From an uncultured Candidatus Poseidoniales archaeon (GTDB lineage: Archaea > Thermoplasmatota > Poseidoniia > Poseidoniales > Thalassarchaeaceae), in the NCBI GenBank assembly GCA_963990035.1, contig CAXDMJ010000004.1:879-64878 (forward strand): 64,000 nt of DNA. The letters are read 5' to 3'. Both the position numbers and the translations under genes were made by a program. Positions 28,933-59,809 of the stretch are shown here, in pieces; within the stretch, counting starts at the first letter, position 1; the number at the start of each line of letters is the position of its first letter. The notes under the pieces are model-generated. The model worked only from the letters and a program-made list of their open reading frames with translations. It ran no database searches and was not told the origin of the DNA.

Positions 28933-31900
28933 GAAAAATTATGATATTGAATCCATCCACCAGTTGCCGCATCATGCCTAAGAATAGAACCATCTAAATT
29001 TTGGCACCAAACTTGCCCTGTTTCATCAGACCAAACTTTCTGCCCATATTCGTTGACAGGAGTCCCCTCTGGAGGAAGAATCACATCTGGTTTAGGTGGA
29101 GTAGGTAATTCACTGAGTAATGCATCGATATGTGATGTATCCCTTACTTCATCAACCTCATTATCTTCTTGAATCTCATCTTCAGATGAATCATTATTTA
29201 TCTCAGGGGTAACTGATTTCATACCTTCATGAGGATAATCTACTTCAATAACGGGTTTATTATCATCAGGAGATTCTATTTCCTCAGTTTTACCTCTTCG
29301 AAGAGTAATTACTCCTAAATAACCCAATACTACTAGTGCTATTATGCCACCTAAAGTCGCTAATACGAATTGAAGATTTGTTTGAAAGTACTTGAAGTTA
29401 GGATGAGAATCAGATTGGTCACCTTTTCCATCACCATCGGAATCCAGCCATTCAGTTATATCCTTAGGGAAAATATCTTCTGAATCAATATAACCGTCAT
29501 TATCAGAATCTGGTAACAAAGGATTTGTACCCATTTCATTTTCTTTACTATCAGACCATCCATCACCATCATCATCAGTATCTGCGTTATTCCCAATACC
29601 ATCGCCATCGGTATCAATCCATTCAGTCGCATCTAAAACATTCCAATCAACATTATCGGCGTAACCATCACCATCATCATCTGTATCTATCAGATTACAT
29701 TCAAAATCTGAATCAGTATCTAGAGGTATTGATTGTGAAATATTAGGGTCAGTTTCACATATTAATTCCATAGAATCTAACCAGCCATCGCCATCATCAT
29801 CTGTATCTATATTATCACCTAATCCATCTGAATCTGTATCAATTGATTCAGTAGAATCATTTGGAAAAGCATCATACTGATCAAGAACTAAATCACCATC
29901 ATCATCATTATCTTCTCCAATGTCTTGACAACCATCACCATCAATATCAGTAGAAGCATTACTTATCCATCCGATAAAACCGGGATTACAGTCATCGACA
30001 GAATCTAATCGGCCATCACCATCATCATCAATATCGTCAGCATCGATAATTCTATCACCATCTGAATCTAATAAACAATCATCAACTGAAGTTGCTCCTT
30101 CAATAATAGTAATATAATTAATCGGACAAGCCCAAAGGAATGAACTTCCTGGGGAATCAGTATAGAAATCAAATGGATTTAATTGCTGAAATAATTGAGC
30201 TTCATCTGAAACAAAATATCCAACATCTGCATCTAAGCATGATATTGCTCCTGGACTAGGTTGATATGTTCCAACAGAACAAGGTATCTGAGTTACAGAC
30301 ATTGTTGTATCAGTGAAATATCCCTCATCAGCAGATATACAAAATGTTTGCATTATATTTGGTTGATACATTCCTGCAGAGCATTCGACATATTCAGATT
30401 GACCAGGATTCAAAACAAAAGTCCCTTCTGGAGAATCAATACAGGACTCTGAACCCTCTGATGGCTGATAAGTTCCCTCTGAGCACATTCTTTGAGAAGA
30501 TGAACCCTCTGATTCAACAAAATGACCTGAATCCGCTAGGATACATGAATCTGAACTTGTTGAAGCAATTGAAGGATTATATGTTCCAATTAAACATGGA
30601 GTTTGTTGATTTGAAGCAATTGATGAAACATAGTACCCTTCGTCTGCTTCATAACAACCTGATTGAGCAGTTTGAGGTTGATAAGTTCCAATTTCACAAG
30701 GGTTTTGTATAAAAGACCCAATGATATGAACGAAGTATCCTGAATCTGCGTAAATACACGTAGCTTGTCCAGTATTTGGTTGATAAGTACCTAATTGACA
30801 TATTAATTGAGATGGAGAAGCAAGAACATCAACATAATGTCCTTCATCGGCATCTAAACAATCAAGATTGCTTGATGAACTAGAATTTGGATTATAAGTT
30901 CCAAAATCACAAGGGAAAGCAGAAGGTGAACCAAGAACATCAACAAAGTATCCTGGTTCGGCATCTAAGCAACTTGAACTAGATGGAGATGGTTGATATG
31001 TACCTAGAATACAAGGCACCTGAAATGAAGAACCATTAGTCGCAACAAAATGTCCTAAAGAGGCCTCAATACATCTAAATTGACCAGTATTTGGTTGATA
31101 ACTTCCTACGTCACAAGGTGTTTGAGAGATTGATTGAGGCAGAGATGAATAATTCCCTGGACTTGCGTCAATACAAGATACACGTCCGGAAAATGGTTGA
31201 TAATTACCAGGTGTACAAGGTATTTGACTTGTAGATGCTGGCATTGATACATAATTCCCAGGTGAGGAAAGGATACAAGAGATTTCAGCAGAACTCGGTT
31301 GGTATGATCCATTGGAACATGGAATTTGTTCAGGAGAACCAGCACTGGACGTATAATATCCAGGATTAGTATCAATGCAAGAGGTTTGAGCGGTCTGATT
31401 TTGATAAGTACCAGCCAAACAGGTTTGTTGACTAGTAGCTCCAGTAGAATCCACATAATGACCAAGAGATGCAGGAGTTTGTATGATAGAAGCAAAGGAA
31501 GAACTGTAGTAACCCAGAGATGTAGTCAAACAACTTGATTCGCCTGTTAAACCCTGATAAGTCCCTGGTGAACATGGAGTTTGCGTAGTTGCACCAGAAC
31601 TAGCAACAAAATAACCTTGAGATGCGCTAAAACAAGAGGAACTAACTTCATTAGGCTGATAACTACCAATCGAACATAATTCCTGATTCACCGATATTTC
31701 TGCATCGATACTATTCAATAAATCACCTAATAATAATGAATCAACAATATTGAAATAACTGAGATTCATATAATATAGGCCGGTAGAATTGACTCTTTCA
31801 ACAACAATATAGATGTTACGAGCAAATGAACTAGATGATGAATTTGTATTAACTGACTCGTTAGACCCTGAATTATTACTGTAATCGATAATACTCATAG

Positions 31901-33737
31901 ATGAATCATATAACGAAATATCAATTTCGGCAGATAATGATTCAACTTCTATAGATACACCATATGATTTATCGACATTAATTTTATAATAGTCATAAGT
32001 ATCAGATTGAGAACTAATACGAGCAGTATAACTTGCACTTGTAGAACTAAGGTTATTCGAATTAGTATTTGAATCTCCTGCATCACCACTTATACTTGAA
32101 ACAAAATTACCTGAATCAGACCTTATGCAGGAACTAGAACCAATATTGTTCTGATAATAACCTAATTGACATACTGATTGAGATGGAGAGGCGGGAGAAC
32201 TAACATAATGTCCAGAAGAGGCTTCATTGCAGTAGGATTTCCCTAATTGATGCTGATATTCACCTATTTGGCACTCTGACTGATATAATGATGAGAAAAT
32301 TGAGTAATGTCCTAGAGATGACTCATTACAACTAATTCGACCCCATGAACCAAGGTCACAGTTCATCCATCGGGCAGGATTATTTGGATAAGGATCATTT
32401 GGTGCAGGAACACCATCACCATCATCATCTCCTATCATATGAACATCTAATATATTGAATATACCATCACCATCCATATCTTGATCTGAAAAAGAAATAT
32501 CTATACCTTCAGTGAAATTCATTAATAGAGGTGAATTAATTGATTCCGTAGTATTATCAAATTCTCTATTTTGATTACCCCAGCAATAGACCAGATAAAT
32601 ATCAGATATCGAACAAGTTGAATCTGAACCGGAAGACACAGCAATCATATTCCCCGAGAAGTTTATTGAATTAGTATCAATATTCTGAGGGATGTTTGTA
32701 TTGGAACCTGAGCAACCACTACTAGGTATAACTGAGGAACATTCACCGTTTCCTATTTGCCCATATGTATTAAGTCCCCAACAACTGATAGAACCATTGT
32801 CTAAGATTGCACAAGTATGAGAATTAGTTCCATCAAGAGACACTGCAGATCTACCTGTAGGTAATGATAAAGAAATTGAACCATTTGTCAATACTCCGTT
32901 TGGAGATGAAATAGTATATGAATCTCCCCAACAACTAATACCACCAGTAGAAGATATTGCACACACACTAGATCCAGGAGTAGAAATTGAAACTACTCTC
33001 TCTCCAATGGAATGATTAACAATTACAGGAATATTACTATTACTTGTAGTTCCGTCGGCAAAGATTCCAAATGAATTATCGCCCCAGCAAGATACATCCC
33101 CCGTGTTGAGTAACACACAAGTAAAATCTGAACCTGCAGAGATAGATACTGCTGTTTTATTAAATCCAAGATCAACAGAAGTAGGTGAATTCAAATTCAA
33201 ATTCCCACCATTGCCCAACTGCCCTTTGTTATTCCTTCCCCAGCAAGAAACTGACCCATCATCAAGAATTGCACAAAAATGAGAATTACCCTGACTCAAT
33301 GCTGCAGGGATTTTCCCATTGAGATCAACATATCCACTAGATAATTGTTGATTACCTAAACCGAGTTGACCATAGTTATTCAAACCTGAACAATAAAGAC
33401 TATAATTTACTAAAAGAGAACATTGACCAGATATTGAGATTACTTCACCTTCGTTAAAAATAGGTGTACCGTTAACGAAAGATACCACAGTACCATTATC
33501 AAGAACCAAAGATGGAGAACCAGAATTTAGTTCAAATATTGAATCTGAAAAGACGTTAGATCTTTGAGAACCAGGGGAATTCATACCTGAAATATTCTTG
33601 CTAATTGATGAATAATCATCTTCCTCAGAAAGGTTAACCGGTTCAGAATTATCGACAAAATTAACAATTGGCACACATAAAAAGAGTAAACAAATAGTAA
33701 TTGCAAGATACTTTCGTGTCGATAGAATACCAGTCAT
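28929..33737 (-). CDS. Giant surface protein 2: RCC1-like beta-propeller, PPC-like domain, 16 Cys-rich ephrin-receptor-like (GCC2/GCC3-type) repeats, TSP3-like Ca-binding repeats, TM anchor, 123-aa cytoplasmic tail
   Basis: RCC1 blades (HFCAILDDGSVSCWGRNNKGQLGNGG, HTCAILDNGSISCWGLNTYGQIGNGE, and others). PPC-like DTYDYYKINVDKSYGVSIEV...IDISLYD. Repeats C-x2-G-x-YQP...C...G-(Y/F)-V. D-x-D-x-D-G repeats. TM FVLATLGGIIALVVLGYLGVITL. Confidence 0.75.
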   Translation of the reverse strand: MTGILSTRKYLAITICLLFLCVPIVNFVDNSEPVNLSEEDDYSSISKNISGMNSPGSQRSNVFSDSIFELNSGSPSLVLDNGTVVSFVNGTPIFNEGEVISISGQCSLLVNYSLYCSGLNNYGQLGLGNQQLSSGYVDLNGKIPAALSQGNSHFCAILDDGSVSCWGRNNKGQLGNGGNLNLNSPTSVDLGFNKTAVSISAGSDFTCVLLNTGDVSCWGDNSFGIFADGTTSNSNIPVIVNHSIGERVVSISTPGSSVCAISSTGGISCWGDSYTISSPNGVLTNGSISLSLPTGRSAVSLDGTNSHTCAILDNGSISCWGLNTYGQIGNGECSSVIPSSGCSGSNTNIPQNIDTNSINFSGNMIAVSSGSDSTCSISDIYLVYCWGNQNREFDNTTESINSPLLMNFTEGIDISFSDQDMDGDGIFNILDVHMIGDDDGDGVPAPNDPYPNNPARWMNCDLGSWGRISCNESSLGHYSIFSSLYQSECQIGEYQHQLGKSYCNEASSGHYVSSPASPSQSVCQLGYYQNNIGSSSCIRSDSGNFVSSISGDAGDSNTNSNNLSSTSASYTARISSQSDTYDYYKINVDKSYGVSIEVESLSAEIDISLYDSSMSIIDYSNNSGSNESVNTNSSSSSFARNIYIVVERVNSTGLYYMNLSYFNIVDSLLLGDLLNSIDAEISVNQELCSIGSYQPNEVSSSCFSASQGYFVASSGATTQTPCSPGTYQGLTGESSCLTTSLGYYSSSFASIIQTPASLGHYVDSTGATSQQTCLAGTYQNQTAQTSCIDTNPGYYTSSAGSPEQIPCSNGSYQPSSAEISCILSSPGNYVSMPASTSQIPCTPGNYQPFSGRVSCIDASPGNYSSLPQSISQTPCDVGSYQPNTGQFRCIEASLGHFVATNGSSFQVPCILGTYQPSPSSSSCLDAEPGYFVDVLGSPSAFPCDFGTYNPNSSSSSNLDCLDADEGHYVDVLASPSQLICQLGTYQPNTGQATCIYADSGYFVHIIGSFIQNPCEIGTYQPQTAQSGCYEADEGYYVSSIASNQQTPCLIGTYNPSIASTSSDSCILADSGHFVESEGSSSQRMCSEGTYQPSEGSESCIDSPEGTFVLNPGQSEYVECSAGMYQPNIMQTFCISADEGYFTDTTMSVTQIPCSVGTYQPSPGAISCLDADVGYFVSDEAQLFQQLNPFDFYTDSPGSSFLWACPINYITIIEGATSVDDCLLDSDGDRIIDADDIDDDGDGRLDSVDDCNPGFIGWISNASTDIDGDGCQDIGEDNDDDGDLVLDQYDAFPNDSTESIDTDSDGLGDNIDTDDDGDGWLDSMELICETDPNISQSIPLDTDSDFECNLIDTDDDGDGYADNVDWNVLDATEWIDTDGDGIGNNADTDDDGDGWSDSKENEMGTNPLLPDSDNDGYIDSEDIFPKDITEWLDSDGDGKGDQSDSHPNFKYFQTNLQFVLATLGGIIALVVLGYLGVITLRRGKTEEIESPDDNKPVIEVDYPHEGMKSVTPEINNDSSEDEIQEDNEVDEVRDTSHIDALLSELPTPPKPDVILPPEGTPVNEYGQKVWSDETGQVWCQNLDGSILRHDAATGGWIQYHNFS
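29403..30074 (-). repeat. Intragenic Asp-rich calcium-binding (thrombospondin type-3-like) repeats
   Basis: DSDGDRIIDADDIDDDGDGRLDSVDDC, DIDGDGCQD, DTDSDGLGDNIDTDDDGDGWLDS, DTDDDGDGYADNVD, DTDGDGIGNNADTDDDGDGWSDS, DSDNDGYIDSED, DSDGDGKGDQSD. Confidence 0.7.
30126..31676 (-). repeat. Intragenic tandem array of 14 Cys-rich units, period 34 aa / 102 nt. Two more units lie at about 32097-32360.
   Basis: Unit starts at residues 688, 722, 773, 807, 841, 875, 909, 943, 980, 1014, 1048, 1085, 1119 and 1153 (CSIGSYQP, CSPGTYQG, CLAGTYQN, CSNGSYQP, CTPGNYQP, CDVGSYQP, CILGTYQP and so on). Spacing is mostly exactly 34 aa. Confidence 0.8.
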
Positions 33738-33796: not shown

Positions 33797-35602
33797 TCAG
33801 ATTGTTAATACTTTTTCAGCTAACAATGGGAGTTCAATATTAGCTATTTCAAAAGCAGATTCGACTGATTCAAAAGGAATATCAGATTTACGACTCGCTT
33901 TGGCACGAGAACTAATAATTCTCCAAGCGGCTTTTTTACCAATTCCGGGTATAGCCTCTAATTGTTGTTGAGATACAGAATTAATATCAAGTCCAGTTTC
34001 TACACCAGATATACTTCTCATTCCATGACCAGTAACTAAAATATCAGAACTATTTTCAAGTGGTATTTGATAAGGTACACCGACTAAGATAGGATAAGCA
34101 CCAATTTGTCGACCAAAAGTAATTCCAGATTTCCCATATATAGATAAATCTCTATGAATTGGATTCAAAACATGTTCAGGTCGACGAATTCGGTCACCAT
34201 GTGTTTCCCACCAAATATCATTTAAGATTAAACCAATAGGAAACATCTCTTCTAGCAAAGGTTTGTCTATTTCTTCACGAACTTTTTTCTTAAAAGAACG
34301 GAAATCAGGCTCTGAAATATCTTGAAAACCTTGACCTTCCACCTGCCTTATATTAATTCGCCTTAACCATAAACCTTCAGAACGTAAATCTTCTAATAAT
34401 CGAAGATTCATCGCATAACTGTTTTTATCCTCTCCATTTAATCCTGCTATGAAATTGAGACCAGGAAGAAGTTTTGGTAATCCCCTTTCACCCCTAACCC
34501 TACCATAATCATTTATGTGACGTATTGCAATTTTAAGTTGTTCAGAATCACAATTAAGCCAATTCATTTCATGGACTTTAGGATCTGCAGATTCTAAACC
34601 AAATGACAAAACTGCGCCGTCACTAAGAGTTTCTATCATGCACTTAGTTATTTCAGTAGATGGTTCAATATTTTCAGCAACTATCGAAGGATTGCCATTA
34701 TCTACATGTAATATTTCTAATCTTTCATCATCTCTAGCTCCATAAAGAACTTTAGAAATTGGTTCAGGATTTGGTACAGGGTATTCCAGTTCTCTAACTC
34801 CTTCTGCACGATATGTGTAGATATCTGTCGCACCCCCAATACGGATATTGCGTACTCCTGAATCTATAGCTCCAGAAATTTCTCTCAATATATCCTCTTC
34901 ACTGCGCCATAAAGGAACTCCTTTTTTGGGTTCAATACAAAATTTACATCCTCTTTTGAATCTTACACACCCCTGATATAGTTCGATTTCATAGGTTAAA
35001 GGCCCTGAACGACCATCTTCTGTCAATAAATCCGGATGATCAGTTACTGCCTTAGATATAGAACCATGATGAGCCCATAATGACCATTGTTCTTTTGTTC
35101 TTTTACTATGCTTCCAAGTCCCTGTAGATATAAAATCATTAAGAGAAGCATCAATATCATTGACTGCACAAAATAAATTGGAGCGTAAAGGAGTCCAACC
35201 AGAATAACGCCAATTTTTAATTGCCCAACCACCACATAATATTGGCTGTTCTTTCGGGAATACTGCTAGGATTTCATCTAACTCTTTCTGACTAATCGGT
35301 GTACCTCTTACATATTTCCCAGGAACAATAGAACCTGCAAGAACTATAGTACCTGATAAATTTGATAATTCTCGACGAAGGTGATCTCTATCGATTTTAT
35401 CTTTGATAAGATGCTTATACTTCAATCGCCATTGATCAATTGTCATATAGGTGTAAGGAATTCCTCGAGATTCTAATACTCCACAGATATATCTTATATG
35501 GAAACCAAGATAGTTTGGGACACCAAAGGCTGCAGGTTCATCTTCATAACCATCGATTACAAGCCACCCCTCCATATCAGTAGGGAGATTAGCATTAGCC
35601 AT
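33797..35602 (-). CDS. Fe-S/radical-SAM-like enzyme with C-terminal helix-hairpin-helix (COG1031-like)
   Basis: Cys cluster CVRFKRGCKFC (C-x6-C-x2-C, which is not the canonical CxxxCxxC). ..NFIAGLNGED.. resembles the radical-SAM GxPGE block. C-terminal HhH LEAIPGIGKKAAWRIISSR. Confidence 0.5.
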   Translation of the reverse strand: MANANLPTDMEGWLVIDGYEDEPAAFGVPNYLGFHIRYICGVLESRGIPYTYMTIDQWRLKYKHLIKDKIDRDHLRRELSNLSGTIVLAGSIVPGKYVRGTPISQKELDEILAVFPKEQPILCGGWAIKNWRYSGWTPLRSNLFCAVNDIDASLNDFISTGTWKHSKRTKEQWSLWAHHGSISKAVTDHPDLLTEDGRSGPLTYEIELYQGCVRFKRGCKFCIEPKKGVPLWRSEEDILREISGAIDSGVRNIRIGGATDIYTYRAEGVRELEYPVPNPEPISKVLYGARDDERLEILHVDNGNPSIVAENIEPSTEITKCMIETLSDGAVLSFGLESADPKVHEMNWLNCDSEQLKIAIRHINDYGRVRGERGLPKLLPGLNFIAGLNGEDKNSYAMNLRLLEDLRSEGLWLRRINIRQVEGQGFQDISEPDFRSFKKKVREEIDKPLLEEMFPIGLILNDIWWETHGDRIRRPEHVLNPIHRDLSIYGKSGITFGRQIGAYPILVGVPYQIPLENSSDILVTGHGMRSISGVETGLDINSVSQQQLEAIPGIGKKAAWRIISSRAKASRKSDIPFESVESAFEIANIELPLLAEKVLTI

Positions 35603-35613
35603 GAATAACTCGC

Positions 35614-36900
35614 TTATTTTCTATTTCGAGAACGCCTATCATTAGACCCACCACGAGATTCATTAGATTCTTGCACACTAAGTTTTCTACCATGAAATTC
35701 AGATCCATTCAATTCTTTCACTGCTTTTTGGCCATTTTTTAAACTTGAAAACTTAATGAAAGCAAAACCTCTAGATTTCCCTGTCTCACGATCTTTAGCG
35801 ATATGGACTTCTTTTAATTCCCCATAAGTAGAAAATAATTTTTCTAAATCGTCCTCATTAGCATCCCAAGATATACTGCCTACGAACAATTTAACTCCAG
35901 AGGATTCACCTGATTTAGCTCTAGCAGATTTCAGAACTTCGCGTTCAGCGGATAATTCTTCTTTACTTGCTTTACCATCGTTAACCTTGTTCATACAATC
36001 ACGACAACGTATTGGTTTCCCTGGAGTTGGTTTGAAAGGTACTTCTGTAGCAGTTGAACACATTGTACAGGTTGTTTTGTGCATCTCTCTACGTTGCCCA
36101 CCTGATCTATTACCACCTGATCTATTGCCATCTGATCTGCCACCACGCATTTTGGCAGCAGATGCAGGAATTTCATGATTAATACCTCTCCTAAAATCTG
36201 CTAAAGGTGAAAGGTAAGGCCGTGCACCATCATGACCTAACATCTTTTCAGCTTTCGGTGACCAACGTTCACCTCCACGGTTTAATGACTTAACATCAGA
36301 GCCTTCTGGAATTGTATATCCATGTCCAAAACCACTGGAAAGTGCTCGATAACCACTATAGTCGCATCTAGGACATGATACATTGAAATCGGGAACTAAA
36401 TTGCTTTTTTCTAATTCTTCCCCACATGCAGGACAAATTGCGAATAGGACTCCAAGTTCTGAATCATCACGAGTACTTGCCTTCAACATTGGTTCAAATT
36501 GAGTTATCTTTGCTCTAACTATATCTCTAGAGCGCATAGCATCGCCTGCTGAAGGTAGATATCTATCTACGAAATCTGTGACATATATGTCTGCAAATAG
36601 TTTCAATGCAGGAATACCTCTTTCTCCACCCTTTTTATCCTCAATATGAAGAATCCTAATTTCTGCAGTTTTAGCGTTAAGACGGTTGACTTGCCCTATC
36701 ACTACATCACCAATCTTTGGCATGTTAGCAGTTGAACCTCCTACCTCTACGGATATCACCCCACTATTTTCAACTAACTTACCCGAAAGTAATGCTAAAA
36801 AACCGGATTCCGTAGAAATAAGACCGTCACCAAGAGTTAATCCTTCATCAATTACAACAGATGTACCGGGTGTAACAAAGTCGCCTGCTGAAGCATTCAT
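35614..36900 (-). CDS. csl4: Exosome cap subunit Csl4 fused to a Gly/Arg-rich linker, a CxxC-x17-CxxC zinc module and an RRM domain
   Basis: Csl4-like GDFVTPG.., S1-like KIGDVVIGQVNRLNAKTAEIRIL, Zn ribbon CPAC-x16-CPRC. Then RGGRSDGNRSGGNRSGGQRR. CTMC-(17)-CRDC at 35995-36069. RRM at 35668-35895 with RNP-2 KLFVGSI and RNP-1 KSRGFAFIKF. The track ORF extends to 36948; the ATG at 36900 is preferred. Confidence 0.75.
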   Translation of the reverse strand: MNASAGDFVTPGTSVVIDEGLTLGDGLISTESGFLALLSGKLVENSGVISVEVGGSTANMPKIGDVVIGQVNRLNAKTAEIRILHIEDKKGGERGIPALKLFADIYVTDFVDRYLPSAGDAMRSRDIVRAKITQFEPMLKASTRDDSELGVLFAICPACGEELEKSNLVPDFNVSCPRCDYSGYRALSSGFGHGYTIPEGSDVKSLNRGGERWSPKAEKMLGHDGARPYLSPLADFRRGINHEIPASAAKMRGGRSDGNRSGGNRSGGQRREMHKTTCTMCSTATEVPFKPTPGKPIRCRDCMNKVNDGKASKEELSAEREVLKSARAKSGESSGVKLFVGSISWDANEDDLEKLFSTYGELKEVHIAKDRETGKSRGFAFIKFSSLKNGQKAVKELNGSEFHGRKLSVQESNESRGGSNDRRSRNRK

Positions 36901-36956
36901 TGGCTCGGCGACTAGACAATCACGTATGAAGAAAACGGATGTTAACAATCAATGCT

Positions 36957-37568
36957 CTAGTTAGGAGATAAACGCCAAAATCCAACTTTTGTCTTATCTC
37001 TATGCCGTTTATGATGAGAGTATGTTGCAGGTAAAGCAAATTCTGCCTCCCCATATTTTTCCACATCCCAGCCTTTAGATTCAAAAAACGGACGTATGTG
37101 CGTAGCTTCAGAACTATGTAGTAAATGTGCTATTGAACCATTGTCTAAAATCATATTCAGAAAAGGTCGATCTGCTTTCTCTTTCTGGCGCCCCCAAGGA
37201 GGATTGCAAATTATTAGATCTACTTTATCGATAGATATACCTGAGCCGATGTGTTCATTTACTATTTGACTAGTTTCTTGAATACCATGAGTAATTAGAT
37301 TATTTTTCAAAACAGTGCATGCTTCAATATCAGTTTCTACAAAAATTACTTCCCTAGCGCCTAATTTTAATGCTGCTATACCCAATATCCCATTACCAGC
37401 ACCTAAGTCTCCAACTGAAGTATCACTATCTATATCTCCGAAAGAAGCAATGTCAAAAAGTAATCTGGATGCCAAGTCACCATCAGTAGAATATTGTTCT
37501 AAATCAACATCATTACAAGGATGAGGCTCTAAATTAGAGAGAATCATAGCAAGACGACGGATTCTCAT
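36957..37568 (-). CDS. SAM-dependent methyltransferase, METTL5/HemK-like (N6-adenine/RNA methylase type)
   Basis: Motif I DLGAGNGILGIAA and motif IV ICNPPWG. Its position next to csl4 matches the conserved archaeal neighbourhood. Confidence 0.7.
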   Translation of the reverse strand: MRIRRLAMILSNLEPHPCNDVDLEQYSTDGDLASRLLFDIASFGDIDSDTSVGDLGAGNGILGIAALKLGAREVIFVETDIEACTVLKNNLITHGIQETSQIVNEHIGSGISIDKVDLIICNPPWGRQKEKADRPFLNMILDNGSIAHLLHSSEATHIRPFFESKGWDVEKYGEAEFALPATYSHHKRHRDKTKVGFWRLSPN

Positions 37569-37603: not shown

Positions 37604-38737
37604 CTAATTATTACTTGGGAAAGTCATATCTAAAATTGTATTTGAATCATGTAATATTCCATCAGCAAGAAGTAATTCAGCCAGAAGTACTCCGTAACCA
37701 GCCGCTCCTCGGATAGTATTATCTGAAACTACTTTAAATCTCAACTTTTTACCAGTTACTTCTATCTCTCCTACTGATACTGCCATAGCAGCACAGAGAT
37801 CTTGGTCTGGTTCCCTAGATTCTGAGCCAGCCCACCTGTGTTCGTCAACATCTAATTTACCATCAATAAAATTAATAATTTTAGTTGAAGATGGGAGTCT
37901 TAAATCATGTGAACTAGAGGAATAGTTTTGCCATATTTCAATTATTTCATGTGCACTGATCTCATCCTTAAAATCTATCTCAATTACTGCTAAATGCCCA
38001 TAATCACGATTTACACGTGAACATAAAACTTTGATATCAAGATTAGGCTCCTGGAATCCCCCCTCATTGTTTCTATCTAAAATCCTATTTAGTTCCCTAA
38101 TAATACTCTCCGATTCACCCGGAATTACTGATTTTATTGGCATACCCAAACGACCTTTTGAAAGCATGCCTCGACCACCACCAGAAAGAGACTGTTCAGT
38201 CACTATGTTAACTGATGAAAAATCGAAATTATCCATTAGTGGAGATAATGTTAGAGCTATCGGAACTACCATGCAATTACTACATGAAATTAAAAAGCCA
38301 TCTCCAAGTTCTTGAGAGTTCAAGAGAGTTAGATCATTTGGGTTGACATCAGGGATAACTAGCGGAATATCATCATCCATTCTATTAATTAATGCGTGAC
38401 TAATTACAACAAATCCTTCTCTAACTAACTCTTTTTCAACTCTAAGAGCAATTTCATCAGGGATTGCTGAAAATATAATTTGAACATTTTCATTTTTTAG
38501 TTCATTTATTAGTTGGTCTAAATCATCAAGTCCCTTCACGGTAATATCAGGTAATTCAGGCTTATCTTCATCTAGAGACCACGGTAATTCACTAATTTTC
38601 AAACCAACTGTAGAAGCAGATCCAATTACAGATACTGGAACTAACCAATTATGATTAATCATTCTTTGAAGATAACGCTGTGCTACAAGACCTCTTGAAC
38701 CAAGGATCGCACAATTCATCCTCCCCAGTTCTGACAT
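37604..38737 (-). CDS. asd: Aspartate-semialdehyde dehydrogenase (archaeal type)
   Basis: N-terminal ILGSRGLVAQRY (Rossmann). Active-site Cys context ISCSNCMVVPIALTLSPL, SLSGGG, and GAAGYGVLLAELL near the C-terminus. Confidence 0.65.
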   Translation of the reverse strand: MSELGRMNCAILGSRGLVAQRYLQRMINHNWLVPVSVIGSASTVGLKISELPWSLDEDKPELPDITVKGLDDLDQLINELKNENVQIIFSAIPDEIALRVEKELVREGFVVISHALINRMDDDIPLVIPDVNPNDLTLLNSQELGDGFLISCSNCMVVPIALTLSPLMDNFDFSSVNIVTEQSLSGGGRGMLSKGRLGMPIKSVIPGESESIIRELNRILDRNNEGGFQEPNLDIKVLCSRVNRDYGHLAVIEIDFKDEISAHEIIEIWQNYSSSSHDLRLPSSTKIINFIDGKLDVDEHRWAGSESREPDQDLCAAMAVSVGEIEVTGKKLRFKVVSDNTIRGAAGYGVLLAELLLADGILHDSNTILDMTFPSNN

Positions 38738-38841: not shown

Positions 38842-40047
38842 ATGGACATCACCGGACTAGTGTATGTAGCAATAGGTCTGGCATTAGGAGGAGCCCTGGG
38901 TTGGTTACTTGCTAAGCAAAAATTGAGTGGGCAAATTATACGTTCAGAAGAAAGACTATCAGCATCTATAGCTGGAAAAAATACCATGAAAGCTGAATTT
39001 CAGTCGATGGCTCTAGAAGTCGCAAAGGATAGCAATGCAGCATTTCTTGACTTAGCTGAACAACGCCTTGGTAAAGTACAAGCTGAAACAGAAAAAGATA
39101 TTCTAGCTAGAAAGAAGGAAGTGAATGATCTAGTCGCACCTCTTAAGGAGCAATTAGAGAAATTATCAAAGTCAAATTCAGATCTAGAGAAAGTAAGAAT
39201 AGGAGCATATGAAGGAATTAAAAGGCACTTAGATAGTCTTGATGAAAATACACGCTCACTAGGACTTAGAGCTGATAATTTGACAGAAGCACTTACCGGT
39301 TCCGCACAGTCTAGAGGGAATTGGGGTGAAGTAAAACTACGCAGATTATTAGAAATTGCTGGTATGACAGAACATGTAGACTTCTTTGAACAAGAAACCG
39401 TAGATGGTGGCAGACCAGATTTCGTAATTCGTTTACCAAATTCAGGAGCAATCCCTGTGGATTCTAAGGCAATAGGGAAGAAGTTTTTTGAAGCTATACA
39501 AAACTCATCAGAAGAAGAAAAATCTGATCTAATTTTAGCTCATGCAGCAGGAATGAGAGAAACTGCAAAGAAATTAGCGTCTAAATCATACCAAGAAAAG
39601 TTAGAAGGAGACATTGATTATGTAGTTATGTGGGTGCCGAGTGAGGCACTATTAGCAGCAGCTTTCGCAGCAGATCCTGAATTACATGAATATGCACTAT
39701 CCAATTCAGTACTAATTGCGACTCCAGTAACGATGCTAGCATTATTAAGAACTGTAGCAATTTATTGGCAACAACAAGCATTAGCAGATGGTGCCAAAGA
39801 AATATATGATGTAAGTAAAGAAATGTATAAAAGAACTGAAGTATTTATGAATCATGTTATGAAAATTGGTAGTAATTTAGATAAAGCAGGCAAGGCATAT
39901 AATGCAGCAATGTCCTCATATGAAACGAGGATTTTACCGCAAGGGAGGAAATTAGAAAATTTACAAGTCAGTGACACACTTCTGAGTTCTCTACCAGAAC
40001 CTCAAGAACTGGCAAATATTTCTGATTATGATTCTGAAAACTATTAA
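38842..40047 (+). CDS. rmuC: DNA recombination protein RmuC
   Basis: N-terminal TM segment, long coiled-coil, nuclease-like core GGRPDFVIRLPNSGAIPVDSKA, and MWVPSEA. Confidence 0.75.
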   Translation: MDITGLVYVAIGLALGGALGWLLAKQKLSGQIIRSEERLSASIAGKNTMKAEFQSMALEVAKDSNAAFLDLAEQRLGKVQAETEKDILARKKEVNDLVAPLKEQLEKLSKSNSDLEKVRIGAYEGIKRHLDSLDENTRSLGLRADNLTEALTGSAQSRGNWGEVKLRRLLEIAGMTEHVDFFEQETVDGGRPDFVIRLPNSGAIPVDSKAIGKKFFEAIQNSSEEEKSDLILAHAAGMRETAKKLASKSYQEKLEGDIDYVVMWVPSEALLAAAFAADPELHEYALSNSVLIATPVTMLALLRTVAIYWQQQALADGAKEIYDVSKEMYKRTEVFMNHVMKIGSNLDKAGKAYNAAMSSYETRILPQGRKLENLQVSDTLLSSLPEPQELANISDYDSENY

Positions 40048-40653
40048 TTGTTAAGCCTTACAAGCAAGTATATGATGAATTGGCAGACTGGGAGGTACCA
40101 TCCGGTAGTGAATCTTCCAAAAGAATATGAAGTTAGAGATTTTACCAAGGGAGTATATATCCCTTCAGAATTTGAATATGATATTGGAAGATACGATGAA
40201 CTAAGACCTGGAATGTATAATACTGATCTGTTTACTGATAGTAGATTCTTACATATTGGAATAGACATAGGAGCACCAGTTGGAACACCTTGTATGGCAT
40301 TTGATGACGGAGAAATCTCACATTTTGGCTATAATCCTGCAGATGGAGATTATGGAAATGTTGTAATTACAAAACATTTGGTTGGAGATGAGCCTATATG
40401 GGCATTATATGGTCACTTAAGTGCAGAATCAATTGTGAATAAAAAAGTAGGTCAAAAAATATCTCGAGGAGAAATAATCTGTTGGATGGGTAATGAAAAG
40501 GAGAATGGAGGTTGGGAACCACATTTACACTTCCAGCTTTCTATAATTGAGCCTCAAACTCATGATATGCCTGGAGTAGTAAATCCAAAAGATAGAGATC
40601 AAGCATTACTAAACTATCCCGACCCAAGACTAGTTCTAGGGCCAATTTACTGA
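40048..40653 (+). CDS. M23 (LytM)-type metallopeptidase-domain protein, no signal peptide
   Basis: Zinc-ligand motifs LHIGIDIGAPVGTP (HxxxD) and PHLHFQL (HxH), plus YGHLS. The track start is a TTG directly after the rmuC stop; an alternative ATG lies at 40072. Confidence 0.6.
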   Translation: MLSLTSKYMMNWQTGRYHPVVNLPKEYEVRDFTKGVYIPSEFEYDIGRYDELRPGMYNTDLFTDSRFLHIGIDIGAPVGTPCMAFDDGEISHFGYNPADGDYGNVVITKHLVGDEPIWALYGHLSAESIVNKKVGQKISRGEIICWMGNEKENGGWEPHLHFQLSIIEPQTHDMPGVVNPKDRDQALLNYPDPRLVLGPIY

Positions 40654-41690
40654 ATCGTAGAAAGATAATTCTTCAGTGAATCAATAGAGCCCATTTCAGA
40701 AGGGTCTACTCCTTGTAATAATGCCAATGCAATACTTATCCAATCTGAAATATTAGATGCATAAAGTAATCTTTCAAGTAAACTTTCACCCTCACAATCA
40801 ATTATCCAAGAGTGATCATTTTCAATGTTTTCTAACATCCAATTCATCCTAGAACGAATCCTTGGATGAATATCATTACATGAAAAATAAATTAGAGAAT
40901 GTTTGTTGCTATTAGCTGTTGCCCAAGCAACTATTTCATTATGATTCATTTCAGGTAATTCGGTAGGACGAGCGAATATATCTGAGTTTTCATTTAATTG
41001 GTTGGCAAAACGGCGACCTGCTGAACTAAGAATAGTGGGTGTAATAATACCAATCTGTTTACCTAACATAGATTCTGCCACAGAAATAACTAGTCCATTC
41101 CCACCACATACGTCAGAATCAATCGATACAGACTTTAAGCGCATAATCATAGAAGATAACTCTTCAACACTAGGTTTTTTTAAGATTCCGAGAGCCCAGG
41201 ATATTGCTAATTGAGTTCCAAATAAATGACCAAAGGCTGAGCGAGGCATTTGACCACCTGGAATTTTTAAATGAAGACATTCGGAATTTTCTGAAAGTAT
41301 TTCTTCTAATTCACCACCTGATGAAATACCAATTACTGTACCTCCTGATTCTAAAGCCTCATTCACCCCATCAAGAGTCTCTTCAGTATTTCCTGAATAA
41401 GAAGTTGCAAGTATTAGCCAATCAGGACCCCACCATGAAGGTAAACCATAATCTCGCCAAACTACGAATGGAATGCCTCCTGAATGATCTGCAAGTGTAG
41501 AGAGATACATTCCTCCTGCACCAGAACCCCCCATCCCTAAACAAACGATTCCAGTCCAATCAACATCTTTTGGGATATCTAATTCTACATTTACTGCTTT
41601 TTCAAAATCATCAATAAAACGACGAGTATAGCCCGCCATGTCACGAGAATCAAATTTCTCGAGAAGAGATTCCATATCTTCAGATCTCAT
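40647..41690 (-). CDS. Bifunctional phosphoglucose/phosphomannose isomerase (SIS domain)
   Basis: GMGGSGAGG and SYSGNTEET. I prefer the ATG at 41690, which overlaps the NMD3 stop as ATGA. The track ORF extends to 41729. Confidence 0.7.
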   Translation of the reverse strand: MRSEDMESLLEKFDSRDMAGYTRRFIDDFEKAVNVELDIPKDVDWTGIVCLGMGGSGAGGMYLSTLADHSGGIPFVVWRDYGLPSWWGPDWLILATSYSGNTEETLDGVNEALESGGTVIGISSGGELEEILSENSECLHLKIPGGQMPRSAFGHLFGTQLAISWALGILKKPSVEELSSMIMRLKSVSIDSDVCGGNGLVISVAESMLGKQIGIITPTILSSAGRRFANQLNENSDIFARPTELPEMNHNEIVAWATANSNKHSLIYFSCNDIHPRIRSRMNWMLENIENDHSWIIDCEGESLLERLLYASNISDWISIALALLQGVDPSEMGSIDSLKNYLSTIQ

Positions 41691-42769
41691 ACTTCCATCT
41701 CCTGAGTGAAACCCGGTAATGCCATCCATCTATCATCTATGAAAGCTATTCGTAACTTCGTTGACTTAATATTATCGTCGTAGGGTAAAGCAACTGTCGC
41801 CATAGTGTAATCATGAGGAGTCATCACTTCAGCAGCAGAACTATCTCGATTCATAATGTCTACAATATGTTGTTCAGATAAAGGACAAATTATTCTAGCT
41901 TTTTCCATATCTCTCCAAGATGCACCTGAACGTTGGAAAAATTTCATACGACGTATGATAGGGCCATCTTTCTGCCATGAATCAATAAGCCATAAATGAT
42001 TATTCAGCTTAACAACATCTCCAACGGCATATGCAGGTTTACGATAACTTACTGTAAGTCTTGTGATTTCAATTCCGTCTCTCATCCCTACAACTGTAGA
42101 TGTTTCTTTAATCGTTCCGCCGAATGTTTTAGTTAAAATTCGTCCCCAGGATCTAGCCATTGATTTAGAACCAAGTTGAAGATCCCAGCCTCCAGTAACA
42201 ATTCCTTCCTGAGTTATGAAAAACATTGGATCTGCTTCCATACCTCCAAGCATTTCATCAAGAGTCCCCCGTAATTCTCTAAGCTCACTTTCAGATAATT
42301 TACGGCCTGCTGAACGAAGTTGGACAATTGCCTCGAAATAAGCTCCATCTTTTCTTGTACAAGGAGTACAAATCGCATTACTAGTTTGTATTAAAATCTC
42401 AAAGCTATTAGCGAAAAGGAAATTATCTATATTCCCTGATACATCTAAATGCACCCTATTTGTCCTATCATCTATCACTTGGAGTTCAAATTCAACATTG
42501 ACATCCTCTGCTCTCGCATCAACTTCAAGATTGTCTTTAATTCGTAAGTCAGCTAATGGTTCATGGTCCATCTTAGACCAACGGCCACGAATTTCGAAGG
42601 ATTCGCATTTTGGACAACGAAATTGTTGAATTGTTTTTGGAATTTTAGATAATGTGACGCGTTTACGAAAACAGACTTCACAAAGTCGATTTGATGAAAG
42701 TATTGTAGTATCTCCACAAACAATACAAAATGCTTCGTTAGACATAACTCTCATCCTTCGCGGAAGCAC
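41687..42769 (-). CDS. NMD3-family protein (archaeal homologue of the 60S export/biogenesis adaptor)
   Basis: N-terminal Cys clusters CIVCG...CEVCF...CPKCESF...GRW, followed by an NMD3-like body. 360 aa. Confidence 0.65.
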   Translation of the reverse strand: MLPRRMRVMSNEAFCIVCGDTTILSSNRLCEVCFRKRVTLSKIPKTIQQFRCPKCESFEIRGRWSKMDHEPLADLRIKDNLEVDARAEDVNVEFELQVIDDRTNRVHLDVSGNIDNFLFANSFEILIQTSNAICTPCTRKDGAYFEAIVQLRSAGRKLSESELRELRGTLDEMLGGMEADPMFFITQEGIVTGGWDLQLGSKSMARSWGRILTKTFGGTIKETSTVVGMRDGIEITRLTVSYRKPAYAVGDVVKLNNHLWLIDSWQKDGPIIRRMKFFQRSGASWRDMEKARIICPLSEQHIVDIMNRDSSAAEVMTPHDYTMATVALPYDDNIKSTKLRIAFIDDRWMALPGFTQEMEV

Positions 42770-51098: not shown

Positions 51099-51107
51099 GT
51101 GTCAACT

Positions 51108-59781: not shown

Positions 59782-59809
59782 ACGGGCATTAACTTGTAAT
59801 AAACAGGAT

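What the first reader, a model, noticed from the sequence alone, without database searches (positions are those of the whole stretch)
35614..36948. Exosome cap protein Csl4 fused in one ORF to an RGG-like linker, a CxxC-x17-CxxC zinc module and a canonical RRM
Seen directly: one uninterrupted reading frame contains five parts.
- a Csl4-type N-terminus, an S1-like segment and a Zn ribbon (CPACGEEL...CPRC)
- RGGRSDGNRSGGNRSGGQRR
- CTMC-STATEVPFKPTPGKPIR-CRDC, with exactly 17 residues between the Cys pairs
- an RRM with RNP-2 KLFVGSI and RNP-1 KSRGFAFIKF
- a basic RGGSNDRRSRNRK tail

Established: archaeal Csl4 normally ends at the Zn ribbon. RRM domains are abundant in eukaryotes but rare in archaea. 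csl4 is typically adjacent to a HemK/METTL5-like methylase gene in archaea, and that gene is present here at 36957-37568. This adjacency argues that the ORF is the genuine csl4 locus.

Inference: the exosome cap (or a free Csl4 paralogue) has acquired an hnRNP-like RNA-recruitment module. That would be a new way of targeting substrates to the archaeal RNA-decay machinery.
Basis: partly seen in the sequence, partly recalled or inferred. Interest (0 to 1): 0.7.

Follow-up and report, generated by a model that had tools for sequence, protein, structure and literature searches.

The report
Exosome cap Csl4 with built-in RNA-binding arm
In this marine group II archaeon the Csl4 cap subunit of the RNA-degrading exosome carries a conserved extra half (zinc finger plus RRM RNA-binding domain), a lineage-wide variant that probably helps the machine catch its RNA substrates and has apparently not been described.

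Summary
It lies on the minus strand, and the true gene is probably 35614-36900 (428 aa, ATG start). HMMs and an AlphaFold2/Foldseek model recover a complete Csl4 (N-terminal domain, S1, 4-Cys Zn ribbon). After it come an RGG linker, a CxxC-x17-CxxC treble-clef zinc finger, a canonical RRM and a basic tail.

It is not a chimera. More than 120 protein clusters from Poseidoniales (MGII) share the full architecture. Relatives 31-44% identical to it keep the Csl4 core and the METTL5-csl4-radical-SAM gene order, but swap the appended modules: RRM-RRM, zf-zf or a single RRM.

Exosome core genes exist in this lineage. The psmA-SBDS-rrp4-rrp41-rrp42-L37ae operon lies on the same 2.07-Mb and 3.0-Mb contigs as two of the extended-Csl4 variants, and also in Thalassarchaeaceae.

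Best reading: this is the orthologous exosome cap subunit with a tethered, basic RNA-capture arm acting in cis. Physical assembly on the ring and RNA binding are inferred, not shown. A second canonical csl4 in the same genome was not excluded.

No paper in the searchable library describes this. I class it as a new variant of a known kind, of moderate to high interest.

The parts
35614..36900 (-). csl4 gene with C-terminal extension (428 aa plus stop). The ORF can be extended mechanically to a TTG at 36948, but homologues start at the ATG at 36900.
36736..36900 (-). Csl4 N-terminal domain (res 1-55; the ring-anchoring domain shared with Rrp4, VTPG motif conserved)
   Evidence: NCBIfam Csl4 full-length match; PF14382 ECR1_N in relatives; Foldseek to 2BA1_A; V9/P11/G12 nearly invariant
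36451..36735 (-). S1/OB domain of Csl4 (res 56-150)
   Evidence: PF10447 EXOSC1 21.7 bits (cut-off 21.2); alignment to 2BA1; model pLDDT 86-94
36316..36450 (-). Csl4 C-terminal Zn ribbon (res 151-195; C156, C159, C176, C179)
   Evidence: Cys invariant or more than 90% conserved in 87 sequences; aligned to the Zn ribbon of 2BA1
36151..36315 (-). Conserved lineage-specific segment with no family match (res 196-250; LNRxGxRWSxxAExxLGHDGARPYLSPxADxRRGxxHEIP). Its first half is predicted to be ordered.
   Evidence: mean pairwise identity 0.74, equal to S1; W213 invariant and N207, G210, R212, E218 at least 90% conserved across all architecture variants; pLDDT about 80 for res 196-225; no Pfam/NCBIfam hit
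36085..36150 (-). RGG-like disordered linker (res 251-272)
   Evidence: pLDDT below 50; sequence poorly conserved (0.43) but composition kept; pI 12
35986..36084 (-). CxxC-x17-CxxC treble-clef zinc finger (res 273-305)
   Evidence: TIGR04272 47.1 bits, PF23477 46.1 bits; most conserved part of the protein (0.79)
35896..35985 (-). Linker with a ~22-residue helix between zinc finger and RRM (res 306-335)
   Evidence: helix 313-334 in the model
35665..35895 (-). RRM domain (res 336-412; RNP-2 LFVGSI, RNP-1 RGFAFIKF)
   Evidence: PF00076 73.6 bits; Foldseek TM 0.9+ to CIRBP, HuR, RBM39 and bacterial PG1 RRMs
35617..35664 (-). Basic RGG/RR tail (res 413-428)
   Evidence: pI 11.8, pLDDT below 50
36957..37568 (-). 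Upstream co-oriented METTL5-family rRNA/RNA methyltransferase (NPPW motif). It is a conserved neighbour of csl4.
   Evidence: full-length match to PH1948 (1WY7, E 2.4e-26), human METTL5 (6H2U, 9e-13) and Ta1320; adjacency conserved
33797..35602 (-). Downstream co-oriented radical-SAM protein with a C-terminal helix-hairpin-helix (601 aa), 11 nt after csl4. It is a conserved neighbour in Poseidoniia.
   Evidence: Pfam Radical_SAM + HHH_3; the same position in L001 and L207/L208

Best explanation
This is the orthologous csl4 gene of a Poseidoniales (marine group II) archaeon.

Its first 195 residues are a complete exosome cap subunit: a ring-anchoring N-terminal domain, a pore-lining S1 domain and a Zn ribbon. 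These should seat the protein on the Rrp41/Rrp42 hexamer that this lineage encodes.

From the peripheral Zn ribbon, a conserved ~55-residue segment leads into a disordered RGG linker. The linker carries a treble-clef zinc finger, a helix, an RRM and a basic tail. This 233-residue arm is strongly basic (net +15, pI 9.9), while the core and the neighbouring proteins are acidic.

The most likely mechanism is capture in cis. Up to three flexible arms per exosome bind single-stranded RNA through RGG, zinc finger and RRM. They raise its local concentration at the S1 pore, and so set affinity and substrate choice for phosphorolytic 3'-5' decay and/or A-rich tailing.

Shown here: domain identities, fold, conservation, orthologous gene order, modular swapping among relatives, and co-occurrence with rrp4/rrp41/rrp42.

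Inferred: assembly on the ring, RNA binding by the arm, and the effect on substrate choice.
For: - Domain calls above curated cut-offs.
- End-to-end alignment with A. fulgidus Csl4.
- AF2 model with pLDDT 83-94 for the Csl4 core. Its best PDB match is archaeal Csl4 2BA1_A (E 2.3e-15, TMt 0.70), followed by human and yeast Csl4. The RRM matches at TM 0.9+.
- More than 120 clusters of full-length homologues, 58-100% identical, named Poseidoniales/Thalassarchaeum/Poseidoniia by their sources.
- Every part except the RGG linker and the tail is under clear constraint. The no-family mid segment is as conserved as S1.
- Relatives at 31-44% identity keep the Csl4 core plus the mid-segment motif (N-x-x-G-x-R-W). 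They carry RRM-RRM, zf-zf-RGG or one RRM instead. The window's RRM is positionally orthologous to their second RRM.
- The METTL5-csl4-radical-SAM order is conserved across variants.
- psmA-SBDS-rrp4-rrp41-rrp42-L37ae operons lie on the same contigs as type-B (2,066,700 bp) and type-C (3,002,195 bp) extended csl4, and in Thalassarchaeaceae.
- The arm is basic and the core acidic.
- From the literature: Csl4 is already the docking site for accessory RNA-binding factors (DnaG, and the aRNase J/ASH-Ski2 network). See PMC7144898 and the citation of Hou et al. 2013 in PMC3914693.
Against: - No direct evidence that this protein binds the ring or RNA.
- The exosome core was shown on the same contig only for the RRM-RRM and zf-zf variants. 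For the window's variant it was shown only at family level, not in the window's own genome: the 64-kb window has no RNase PH gene.
- A second, canonical csl4 in the same genomes was not excluded. If one exists, this protein could be a free paralogue.
- The Csl4 score (97.2 bits) is only just above the equivalog cut-off (90), so the core is divergent.
- The function of the TIGR04272 zinc finger is unknown. Only Zn binding has been shown, in M. mazei small proteins (PMC12704099).
Confidence: 0.68

Rival explanations
1. An exosome-independent RNA-binding protein. The Csl4-like S1/Zn-ribbon core has been recruited, together with RGG, zinc finger and RRM, into a free multivalent RNA chaperone or regulator. 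This could be a cold-shock/hnRNP-like protein, or a ribosome-biogenesis factor working with the neighbouring METTL5 methyltransferase and radical-SAM enzyme.
For: - JGI pipelines name homologues 'cold-inducible RNA-binding protein' or 'nucleolin'.
- The RRM is closest to CIRBP-type and bacterial single-RRM proteins.
- The conserved operon partners are RNA-modification-type enzymes, not exosome genes.
- The Csl4 core is divergent (97.2 vs cut-off 90).
- A second csl4 was not excluded.
Against: - The N-terminal domain is retained with its conserved VTPG motif. From the exosome structures, which I recall rather than tested, its only known role is to anchor cap proteins on the RNase PH ring.
- The MTase-csl4 gene pair is the ancestral csl4 context also seen in Methanolobus.
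- No canonical Csl4-length relative appeared among hits with E below 1e-30 in the exhaustive representative search. The short hits are fragments that include the mid segment or break off inside the Zn ribbon.
- The lineage keeps rrp4, rrp41 and rrp42.
Confidence: 0.17
2. The extension is mainly a protein-protein or assembly device rather than an RNA-capture arm. The conserved mid segment and the zinc finger would dock a partner (DnaG, a helicase, aCPSF/aRNase J, or the ribosome). Alternatively, the RGG regions would drive clustering or condensation of exosomes, for instance at the membrane.
For: - The most conserved appended pieces are the mid segment and the zinc finger, not the RRM.
- Type-B, C and D relatives share a conserved C-terminal peptide R-S-x-R-E-x-x-A-x-x-E-E-G that looks like a docking motif.
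- One variant (P0129) has no RRM at all.
- Csl4 is the known docking subunit for DnaG (cited in PMC3914693).
Against: - RRM RNP-1 and RNP-2 aromatic positions are intact and conserved.
- The arm carries net charge +15.
- Every variant carries at least one module type typically used for nucleic-acid binding.
- No partner was identified.
Confidence: 0.12
3. Assembly, frameshift or gene-calling artefact that joins a csl4 gene to a separate RNA-binding protein gene.
For: - Some NCBI MAG annotations list a separate 115-aa 'RNA-binding protein' equal to the last RRM plus tail of the RRM-RRM variant (P0286).
- Several short database entries are broken versions.
Against: - There is a single open frame in the window.
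- There is an identical protein in an independent Logan assembly.
- More than 120 clusters keep the full-length frame, from NCBI, JGI, ENA, Tara and Logan, on contigs up to 337 kb and, for variants, 2-3 Mb.
- The junction regions are themselves conserved at the protein level.
Confidence: 0.01

Closest known systems
Canonical archaeal Csl4 (e.g. A. fulgidus AF_0206, PDB 2BA1/3M7N; NCBIfam PRK09521)
   Same: The same three-domain core (N-terminal domain, S1, 4-Cys Zn ribbon). It matches end to end by sequence (E 2.3e-13) and by fold (E 2.3e-15, TMt 0.70). The MTase-csl4 gene pair is the same as in Methanolobus. The genomes of the lineage encode rrp4/rrp41/rrp42.
   Different: Canonical proteins are 175-242 aa and stop at or shortly after the Zn ribbon. 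This one adds 233 residues: a conserved mid segment, RGG, a treble-clef zinc finger, a helix, an RRM and a basic tail. rpoL, the usual downstream neighbour, is replaced by a radical-SAM/HhH gene.
Eukaryotic exosome adaptors that combine RRM and zinc-knuckle modules (NEXT: RBM7 + ZCCHC8 + MTR4; TRAMP: Air1/2 + Trf4/5 + Mtr4). Recalled from general knowledge, not tested here.
   Same: The functional logic is the same: an RRM and/or small zinc modules, plus low-complexity basic regions, select RNAs and deliver them to the exosome cap.
   Different: There is no homology beyond the generic RRM. Eukaryotic adaptors are separate proteins that act through a helicase. Here the modules are covalently fused to the cap subunit itself, and no helicase link is known. 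The zinc module is a CxxC-x17-CxxC treble clef, not a CCHC knuckle.
Archaeal DnaG as a Csl4-dependent RNA-binding accessory of the exosome (Hou et al. 2013, cited in PMC3914693; PMC7667871)
   Same: It provides extra RNA-binding capacity, attached to the cap through Csl4, that tunes substrate preference.
   Different: DnaG is a separate protein with unrelated folds. Here the added binding modules are in cis. Whether Poseidoniales DnaG still binds this Csl4 is unknown.
Single-RRM glycine/arginine-rich RNA-binding proteins (vertebrate CIRBP/hnRNP A18, plant GRPs, cyanobacterial Rbp, NCBIfam NF058537 'RNA-binding regulator')
   Same: The RRM is 43% identical to CIRBP over 83 aligned columns of the Foldseek alignment (TM 0.93). 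It scores 84.7 bits against NF058537 (below that model's cut-off of 100). RGG-type flanks are present.
   Different: Those are small stand-alone proteins. Here the RRM is the last module of an exosome subunit.
CxxC-x17-CxxC (TIGR04272 / PF23477) small zinc proteins of Methanosarcina mazei (PMC12704099)
   Same: The same domain model is matched above its cut-off. Zn binding has been shown experimentally for members of that family.
   Different: Those are stand-alone small proteins of unknown function. Here the domain is embedded between an RGG linker and an RRM on Csl4, and is duplicated in variant P0129.

Membership tests
Csl4 (exosome cap subunit) | Curated equivalog HMM matched over its full length, above the cut-off | tested here: met
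   NF034126/PRK09521: 97.2 bits vs cut-off 90, model positions 1-178 of 180. The margin is narrow.
Csl4 (exosome cap subunit) | Three-domain fold: N-terminal domain + S1 + C-terminal Zn ribbon with four Cys | tested here: met
   AF2 model with pLDDT 83-94. Foldseek top hit 2BA1_A (E 2.3e-15, TMt 0.70), then human and yeast Csl4. C156/C159/C176/C179 conserved.
Csl4 (exosome cap subunit) | Genome also encodes the Rrp41/Rrp42 ring (and Rrp4) | tested here: inconclusive
   Met for relatives. The same contig carries extended csl4 and rrp4-rrp41-rrp42 for type B (2.07 Mb) and type C (3.0 Mb). Thalassarchaeaceae and Poseidoniaceae have the operon. Not shown for the window's own genome: none in the 64 kb.
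Csl4 (exosome cap subunit) | It is the only csl4 homologue in the genome (an orthologue, not a paralogue) | tested here: inconclusive
   The ancestral MTase-csl4 context is conserved. No canonical-length close relative appeared among representative hits with E below 1e-30. Whole genomes could not be scanned.
Csl4 (exosome cap subunit) | Physical assembly on the Rrp41/Rrp42 hexamer | not testable with these tools
   Needs co-expression and pull-down, or multimer modelling.
RRM (PF00076) | HMM above gathering score, RNP-1/RNP-2 motifs, beta-alpha-beta-beta-alpha-beta fold | tested here: met
   73.6 bits vs 20.7. RGFAFIKF and LFVGSI present. Model strands and helices in the expected order. TM 0.9+ to many solved RRMs.
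RRM (PF00076) | Binds single-stranded RNA | not testable with these tools
   Inferred from intact RNP aromatic residues and basic flanks.
CxxC-x17-CxxC domain (TIGR04272 / PF23477 zf_Tbcl_2) | Two CxxC pairs 17 residues apart; HMM above cut-off | tested here: met
   47.1 bits vs 36, and 46.1 bits vs 27. The spacer was counted as 17. Cys invariant or nearly invariant.
CxxC-x17-CxxC domain (TIGR04272 / PF23477 zf_Tbcl_2) | Coordinates zinc | not testable with these tools
   Shown by ICP-MS for two M. mazei family members (PMC12704099), not for this protein.
METTL5-family methyltransferase (neighbour gene 36957-37568) | Full-length similarity to METTL5/PH1948/Ta1320, and an NPP[FWY] catalytic motif | tested here: met
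   1WY7 E 2.4e-26 (2-201 vs 4-201); 6H2U E 9e-13; 1NE2 E 1e-12. NPPW is present in the translation. No NCBIfam equivalog reached its cut-off.
Eukaryotic-type exosome adaptor complexes (NEXT/TRAMP) | Separate adaptor proteins acting through an Mtr4-type helicase | not tested
   This is an analogy of function only. No homology is claimed, and no helicase link was examined.

The most novel reading that the evidence does not exclude
Poseidoniia archaea (MGII and relatives) have turned the Csl4 cap subunit into a modular, evolvable substrate-selection device. A conserved anchor segment carries interchangeable RNA-binding cassettes (RRM-RRM, zf-RRM, zf-zf) that decide which RNAs enter the exosome. 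That would be a prokaryotic, in-cis counterpart of the eukaryotic adaptor principle (NEXT/TRAMP-like RRM and zinc modules). It arose independently in one of the most abundant archaeal groups of the surface ocean.
Probability: 0.45. Interest if true: 0.75.

Novelty: new variant of a known kind. Interest (0 to 1): 0.6.

Why it matters
How the archaeal exosome chooses its substrates is poorly understood. Known specificity comes from the Rrp4/Csl4 cap composition and from DnaG docked on Csl4.

A cap subunit with its own RRM and zinc-finger arm gives a concrete handle on targeting that can be tested biochemically. The arm is conserved across a whole class, and its modules differ between families.

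It also shows that the 'RRM/zinc module feeds the exosome' logic of eukaryotes can arise by simple domain accretion in archaea.

The organisms are uncultured but globally abundant, so recombinant reconstitution is the realistic route. The protein is also a useful annotation fix: public pipelines variously call it Csl4, 'CxxC-x17-CxxC domain protein', 'cold-inducible RNA-binding protein', 'nucleolin' or 'hypothetical'.

Tried and rejected
1. Chimera or frameshift: rejected.

2. Exosome core genes inside the window: none among about 45 ORFs scanned.

3. Literature. Nine searches combined Csl4/RRM/archaea, CxxC-x17-CxxC, Poseidoniales or Marine Group II or MGII with exosome/Rrp41, and RRM with MGII/Thermoplasmatota. 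None found a description of this fusion. Supplements of Rinke 2018 gave nothing. Supplementary Data 9 of PMC7414124, which would list exosome genes per clade, is truncated in the held copy. Only the indirect count from Supplementary Data 4 was usable: Rrp41 and Rrp42 in 46 of 49 clades.

4. The genome-contig scan with an Rrp41 alignment returned only the 80 hits most similar to P. abyssi, with no Poseidoniales. That outcome is uninformative about absence.

5. The detour that worked. A DNA pattern for the Rrp41 motif ALADAGxPM was run on metagenome contigs. Hits were clustered locally. The marine cluster was then named through homologues.

6. Origin of the zf-RRM cassette (bacterial or eukaryotic donor, or a stand-alone precursor): could not be addressed. 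Any query from this protein returns only the more than 120 MGII fusion clusters. The top 150 of the representative search is swamped by multi-RRM eukaryotic proteins.

7. The first AF2 run with a 20-sequence alignment gave a poor Csl4 core (pLDDT 59). It was superseded by the 87-sequence run.

8. The radical-SAM neighbour has no relative in the PDB by sequence.

9. The A. veneficus Csl4 look-up was not on record.

10. The Anantharaman 2002 paper is not held.
Full report
OBSERVATION. The ORF at 35614-36948 exists, but on the minus strand. The plus-strand reading is full of stops. The listed TTG start at 36948 is only the first possible start after an upstream stop. All close homologues begin at the residue encoded by the ATG at 36900 (M-x-A-x-x-G-D-F-V-T-P-G). 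I therefore take the gene as 35614-36900, 428 aa, with stop TAA.

- NCBIfam Csl4 equivalog PRK09521: 97.2 bits against a cut-off of 90, covering 178 of 180 model positions.
- TIGR04272 (CxxC-x17-CxxC): 47.1 bits against 36, equivalent to Pfam zf_Tbcl_2 at 46.1 bits against 27.
- RRM_1: 73.6 bits against 20.7.

The Csl4 part aligns with the solved A. fulgidus Csl4 from residue 3 to residue 177 of 179 (E 2.3e-13). So the first 195 residues are a whole Csl4, not a fragment.

STRUCTURE. A first AlphaFold2 run with 20 close homologues modelled the RRM and zinc finger well but the Csl4 core poorly (mean pLDDT 59). With an 87-sequence alignment that includes distant relatives (A4), the model reached mean pLDDT 77.7:
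- Csl4 core: 83-94.
- Residues 196-225: about 80.
- Residues 226-250: 55-60.
- RGG stretch 250-269 and the last 15 residues: below 50.
- Zinc finger: about 80.
- RRM: about 83.
- A ~22-residue helix (313-334) was also predicted.

Foldseek against the PDB put A. fulgidus Csl4 (2BA1_A) first (E 2.3e-15, TM 0.70 on the target). Yeast, human and C. thermophilum Csl4 followed. The RRM matched solved RRMs at TM 0.9 or above, for example CIRBP/hnRNP A18 at 43% identity and a bacterial RRM protein, 7JLY. The condition 'structure prediction fails to recover an RRM or a Csl4 fold' is therefore not met.

NOT A CHIMERA; A LINEAGE-WIDE ARCHITECTURE. A search of 5.8 billion protein clusters returned 322 significant hits. 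The best 120 are all 58-100% identical. All but a few evident fragments are full length (about 403-479 aa), and all carry RRM_1 plus zf_Tbcl_2. They come from NCBI, JGI, ENA, Tara and Logan, on contigs up to 337 kb. Their sources name them Candidatus Poseidoniales, Poseidoniia or Thalassarchaeum. One Logan entry is identical to the window protein.

Region-by-region conservation in a 20-sequence sample, as mean pairwise identity:
- zinc finger 0.79
- segment 196-250: 0.74
- S1 0.73
- Zn ribbon 0.72
- RRM 0.65
- N-terminal domain 0.51
- RGG 0.43

It is as constrained as the catalytically relevant core.

VARIANTS. The exhaustive representative search and alignment A2 revealed relatives at 31-44% identity. 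They keep the Csl4 core and the start of the mid segment, but carry different appended modules (Pfam):
- two RRMs plus a conserved C-terminal peptide R-S-x-R-E-x-x-A-x-x-E-E-G (P0123, P0124, P0127, P0128, P0130, P0132, P0135);
- two CxxC-x17-CxxC fingers plus RGG repeats and no RRM (P0129);
- one RRM (P0157).

Across all 87 sequences W213 is invariant, and N207, G210, R212 and E218 are at least 90% conserved.

Source names place the RRM-RRM type in Poseidoniales/Poseidoniaceae and in 'Thermoplasmatota archaeon' MAGs. The window's RRM is more similar to the second than to the first RRM of most RRM-RRM proteins, for example 51% vs 40% and 49% vs 36%. This suggests the C-terminal RRM is the older, shared module, and that the slot before it holds either an RRM or a zinc finger.

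GENE CONTEXT. In the window the order on the minus strand is asd (37604-38737), a 203-aa methyltransferase (36957-37568), csl4, then 11 nt later a 601-aa radical-SAM protein with a helix-hairpin-helix tail (33797-35602).

The methyltransferase matches PH1948 (1WY7) over its full length (E 2.4e-26), and also human METTL5 and Ta1320.

The MTase-csl4-radical-SAM order recurs next to the RRM-RRM variant (L001, L207, L208). asd...MTase...csl4 recurs next to the zf-zf variant (L002).

Outside the class, Methanolobus has dph2-MTase-csl4-rpoL, while one Thermoplasmata archaeon has csl4-rpoL-truD without the methylase. So the methylase adjacency is an old csl4 context but not a universal one. It supports orthology of this locus.

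Canonical Csl4 proteins recovered with the A. fulgidus sequence are 175-242 aa.

IS THERE AN EXOSOME TO CAP? The window holds no RNase PH-type gene, and the literature searches gave nothing specific for MGII. One indirect point: in PMC7414124, Supplementary Data 4, Rrp41 and Rrp42 were each found in 46 of 49 archaeal clades, a set that includes Poseidoniales and Pontarchaea. The known exosome-less groups are Halobacteria, Methanomicrobiales and Methanococci (PMC7144898).

For a direct test I did the following:
1. Verified a recalled S. solfataricus Rrp41 sequence against 2BR2_B; it was identical.
2. Built an Rrp41 alignment (A3).
3. Scanned species-representative genomes. The 80 loci kept were those closest to P. 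abyssi and included many Thermoplasmatota but no Poseidoniales, which says nothing about absence.
4. Searched metagenome contigs for the DNA pattern of the near-invariant Rrp41 motif ALADAGxPM.

Among 120 loci, a tight marine cluster stood out (a Tara scaffold, an ENA marine assembly and four further metagenome contigs, 91-95% identical to each other). Its nearest labelled relatives were Thermoplasmatota, at 57-59%.

One of these contigs, L158, carries psmA, SBDS, rrp4, rrp41, rrp42, L37ae and prefoldin beta in the classical superoperon order. Homologues of its Rrp41 are named by NCBI as Rrp41 of Candidatus Poseidoniaceae (82%), Poseidoniales (74%), Thalassarchaeaceae (73%) and Thermoplasmatota (87%).

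The decisive results are these:
- The Rrp41 P0424 lies at 2.31 Mb on ENA contig ERZ26167216:ctg495766 (3,002,195 bp). The same contig carries the zf-zf Csl4 P0129 at 0.60 Mb.
- The Rrp41 P0357 lies at 0.93 Mb on ERZ28548080:kelso_4__contig_13935 (2,066,700 bp). The same contig carries the RRM-RRM Csl4 P0324 at 0.62 Mb.
- The Thalassarchaeaceae Rrp41 sits in the same operon on 217-501-kb contigs.

The refutation condition 'the genome lacks all exosome core genes' is thus not met for the lineage. It remains unverified only for the individual genome the window came from.

A SECOND CSL4? I could not scan whole genomes. The representative search listed all 132 proteins with E below 1e-30. The only short Csl4-like entries (125-197 aa) are fragments: they contain the mid segment, break off inside the Zn ribbon, or end in frameshift noise. 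This argues against a close canonical paralogue but cannot exclude a distant one.

MECHANISM. In the solved archaeal and eukaryotic exosomes (recalled, not tested here), the N-terminal domains of Rrp4 and Csl4 anchor the cap on the RNase PH ring. The S1 domains line the entry pore, and the third domain sits at the periphery. Here all three are intact and conserved. The extension starts from the peripheral Zn ribbon with a segment predicted to be ordered (pLDDT about 80 to residue 225). It continues through a disordered RGG linker to a zinc finger, a helix, an RRM and a basic tail.

The arm has pI 9.85 and net charge +15. The Csl4 core has pI 4.87, and twelve neighbouring proteins have a median pI of 5.2.

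The simplest reading is a tethered single-stranded-RNA capture arm acting in cis, up to three per complex. It would raise affinity and bias substrate choice for phosphorolytic decay or tailing. Csl4 is already the subunit through which accessory RNA-binding factors join the archaeal exosome: DnaG, and the aRNase J/ASH-Ski2 network. So adding binding modules there fits the known biology.

The swapping of RRM and zinc-finger cassettes between families suggests that the arm, not the core, is what evolves. This is expected if it sets specificity.

I give this reading about 0.68. The rivals:
- Exosome-independent RNA chaperone or ribosome-biogenesis factor, linked to the METTL5 and radical-SAM neighbours: about 0.17.
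- Mainly a protein-docking or clustering device: about 0.12.
- Artefact: about 0.01.

COMPARISON AND NOVELTY. As a family member, the protein passes the Csl4, RRM and TIGR04272 tests applied here. Ring assembly, RNA binding and zinc binding are untested.

Functionally it resembles eukaryotic exosome adaptors built from RRMs and small zinc modules (NEXT, TRAMP), but only by analogy. There is no homology beyond the RRM, no helicase link, and the modules are fused to the cap itself.

The sequences are public, and automated pipelines have labelled them inconsistently. JGI even uses 'RNA recognition motif-containing protein/exosome complex RNA-binding protein Csl4'. None of the nine topic searches of the 8-million-paper library turned up a description.

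I therefore class it as a new variant of a known kind: an archaeal exosome cap subunit with lineage-specific, modular RNA-binding accretions. Interest is about 0.6. A specialist in archaeal RNA decay would find it notable and directly testable by reconstitution, but it extends rather than overturns the known system.

Noticed in passing
window 36151-36315 (-), res 196-250 of the protein: A 55-residue segment between the Csl4 Zn ribbon and the RGG linker matches no family, yet it is as conserved as the S1 domain. Its N-x-x-G-x-R-W core is shared by all architecture variants (W213 invariant in 87 sequences). It may be a docking element for the ring or for a partner.
   Followed up: partly
relatives P0123, P0124, P0127, P0128, P0129, P0130, P0132, P0135, P0157 (alignment A2, C-terminal columns): The RRM-RRM, zf-zf and single-RRM variants end in a conserved peptide R-S-x-R-E-x-x-A-x-x-E-E-G that the window's variant lacks. 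It looks like a short linear docking motif of unknown partner.
   Followed up: no
window 33797-35602 (-): A 601-aa radical-SAM protein with a C-terminal helix-hairpin-helix lies 11 nt downstream of csl4. It holds the same position next to the distant RRM-RRM variant (L001, L207). It has no PDB relative by sequence and no NCBIfam equivalog. METTL5-csl4-radical-SAM may be a functional RNA-processing operon.
   Followed up: partly
window 28929-33737 (-): A 1602-aa predicted surface protein. It has RCC1-like 'CWG.N..GQLG' repeats, many Cys-rich 'G.YQ' modules, thrombospondin-type-3-like D-x-D-x-D-G calcium repeats and a C-terminal membrane anchor. Other very large ORFs lie at 15247-18399 (no Pfam hit), 46314-51098 and 59690-63943.
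   Followed up: no
window 38842-40653, 51099-51740, 27952-28932, 40647-41729: A cluster of bacterial-type genes in an archaeal genome: RmuC, peptidase M23, Maf, FabH-type ketoacyl-ACP synthase III and bacterial-type PGI. This is consistent with the heavy bacterial gene import reported for MGII.
   Followed up: no
P0286 and relatives (NCBI HIA39672.1 etc.), cluster of P0127: NCBI MAG annotations list a separate 115-aa 'RNA-binding protein' that equals the second RRM plus tail of the RRM-RRM Csl4 variant, on contigs up to 75 kb. It is either a gene-calling or frameshift split, or a genuine stand-alone copy.
   Followed up: no
L212, L213, L218 (long-read ENA contigs): rrp42 or rrp4 is called as two ORFs in some 0.7-1.8-Mb 'pilon' contigs, while identical operons elsewhere are intact. 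These are probably residual long-read indel errors rather than pseudogenes.
   Followed up: no
window 26455-27816 (-): A 453-aa protein that combines a PilT/T2SSE-type ATPase domain with a KH domain. It is another RNA-linked protein close to the locus.
   Followed up: no
L158 4939-5214, L204 7856-8092, L203 6917-7156: A conserved 76-91-aa ORF with no Pfam hit lies between L37ae and prefoldin beta in the Poseidoniia exosome superoperon. This is the position where RpoP or Brix-type genes sit in other archaea (recalled, not checked).
   Followed up: no
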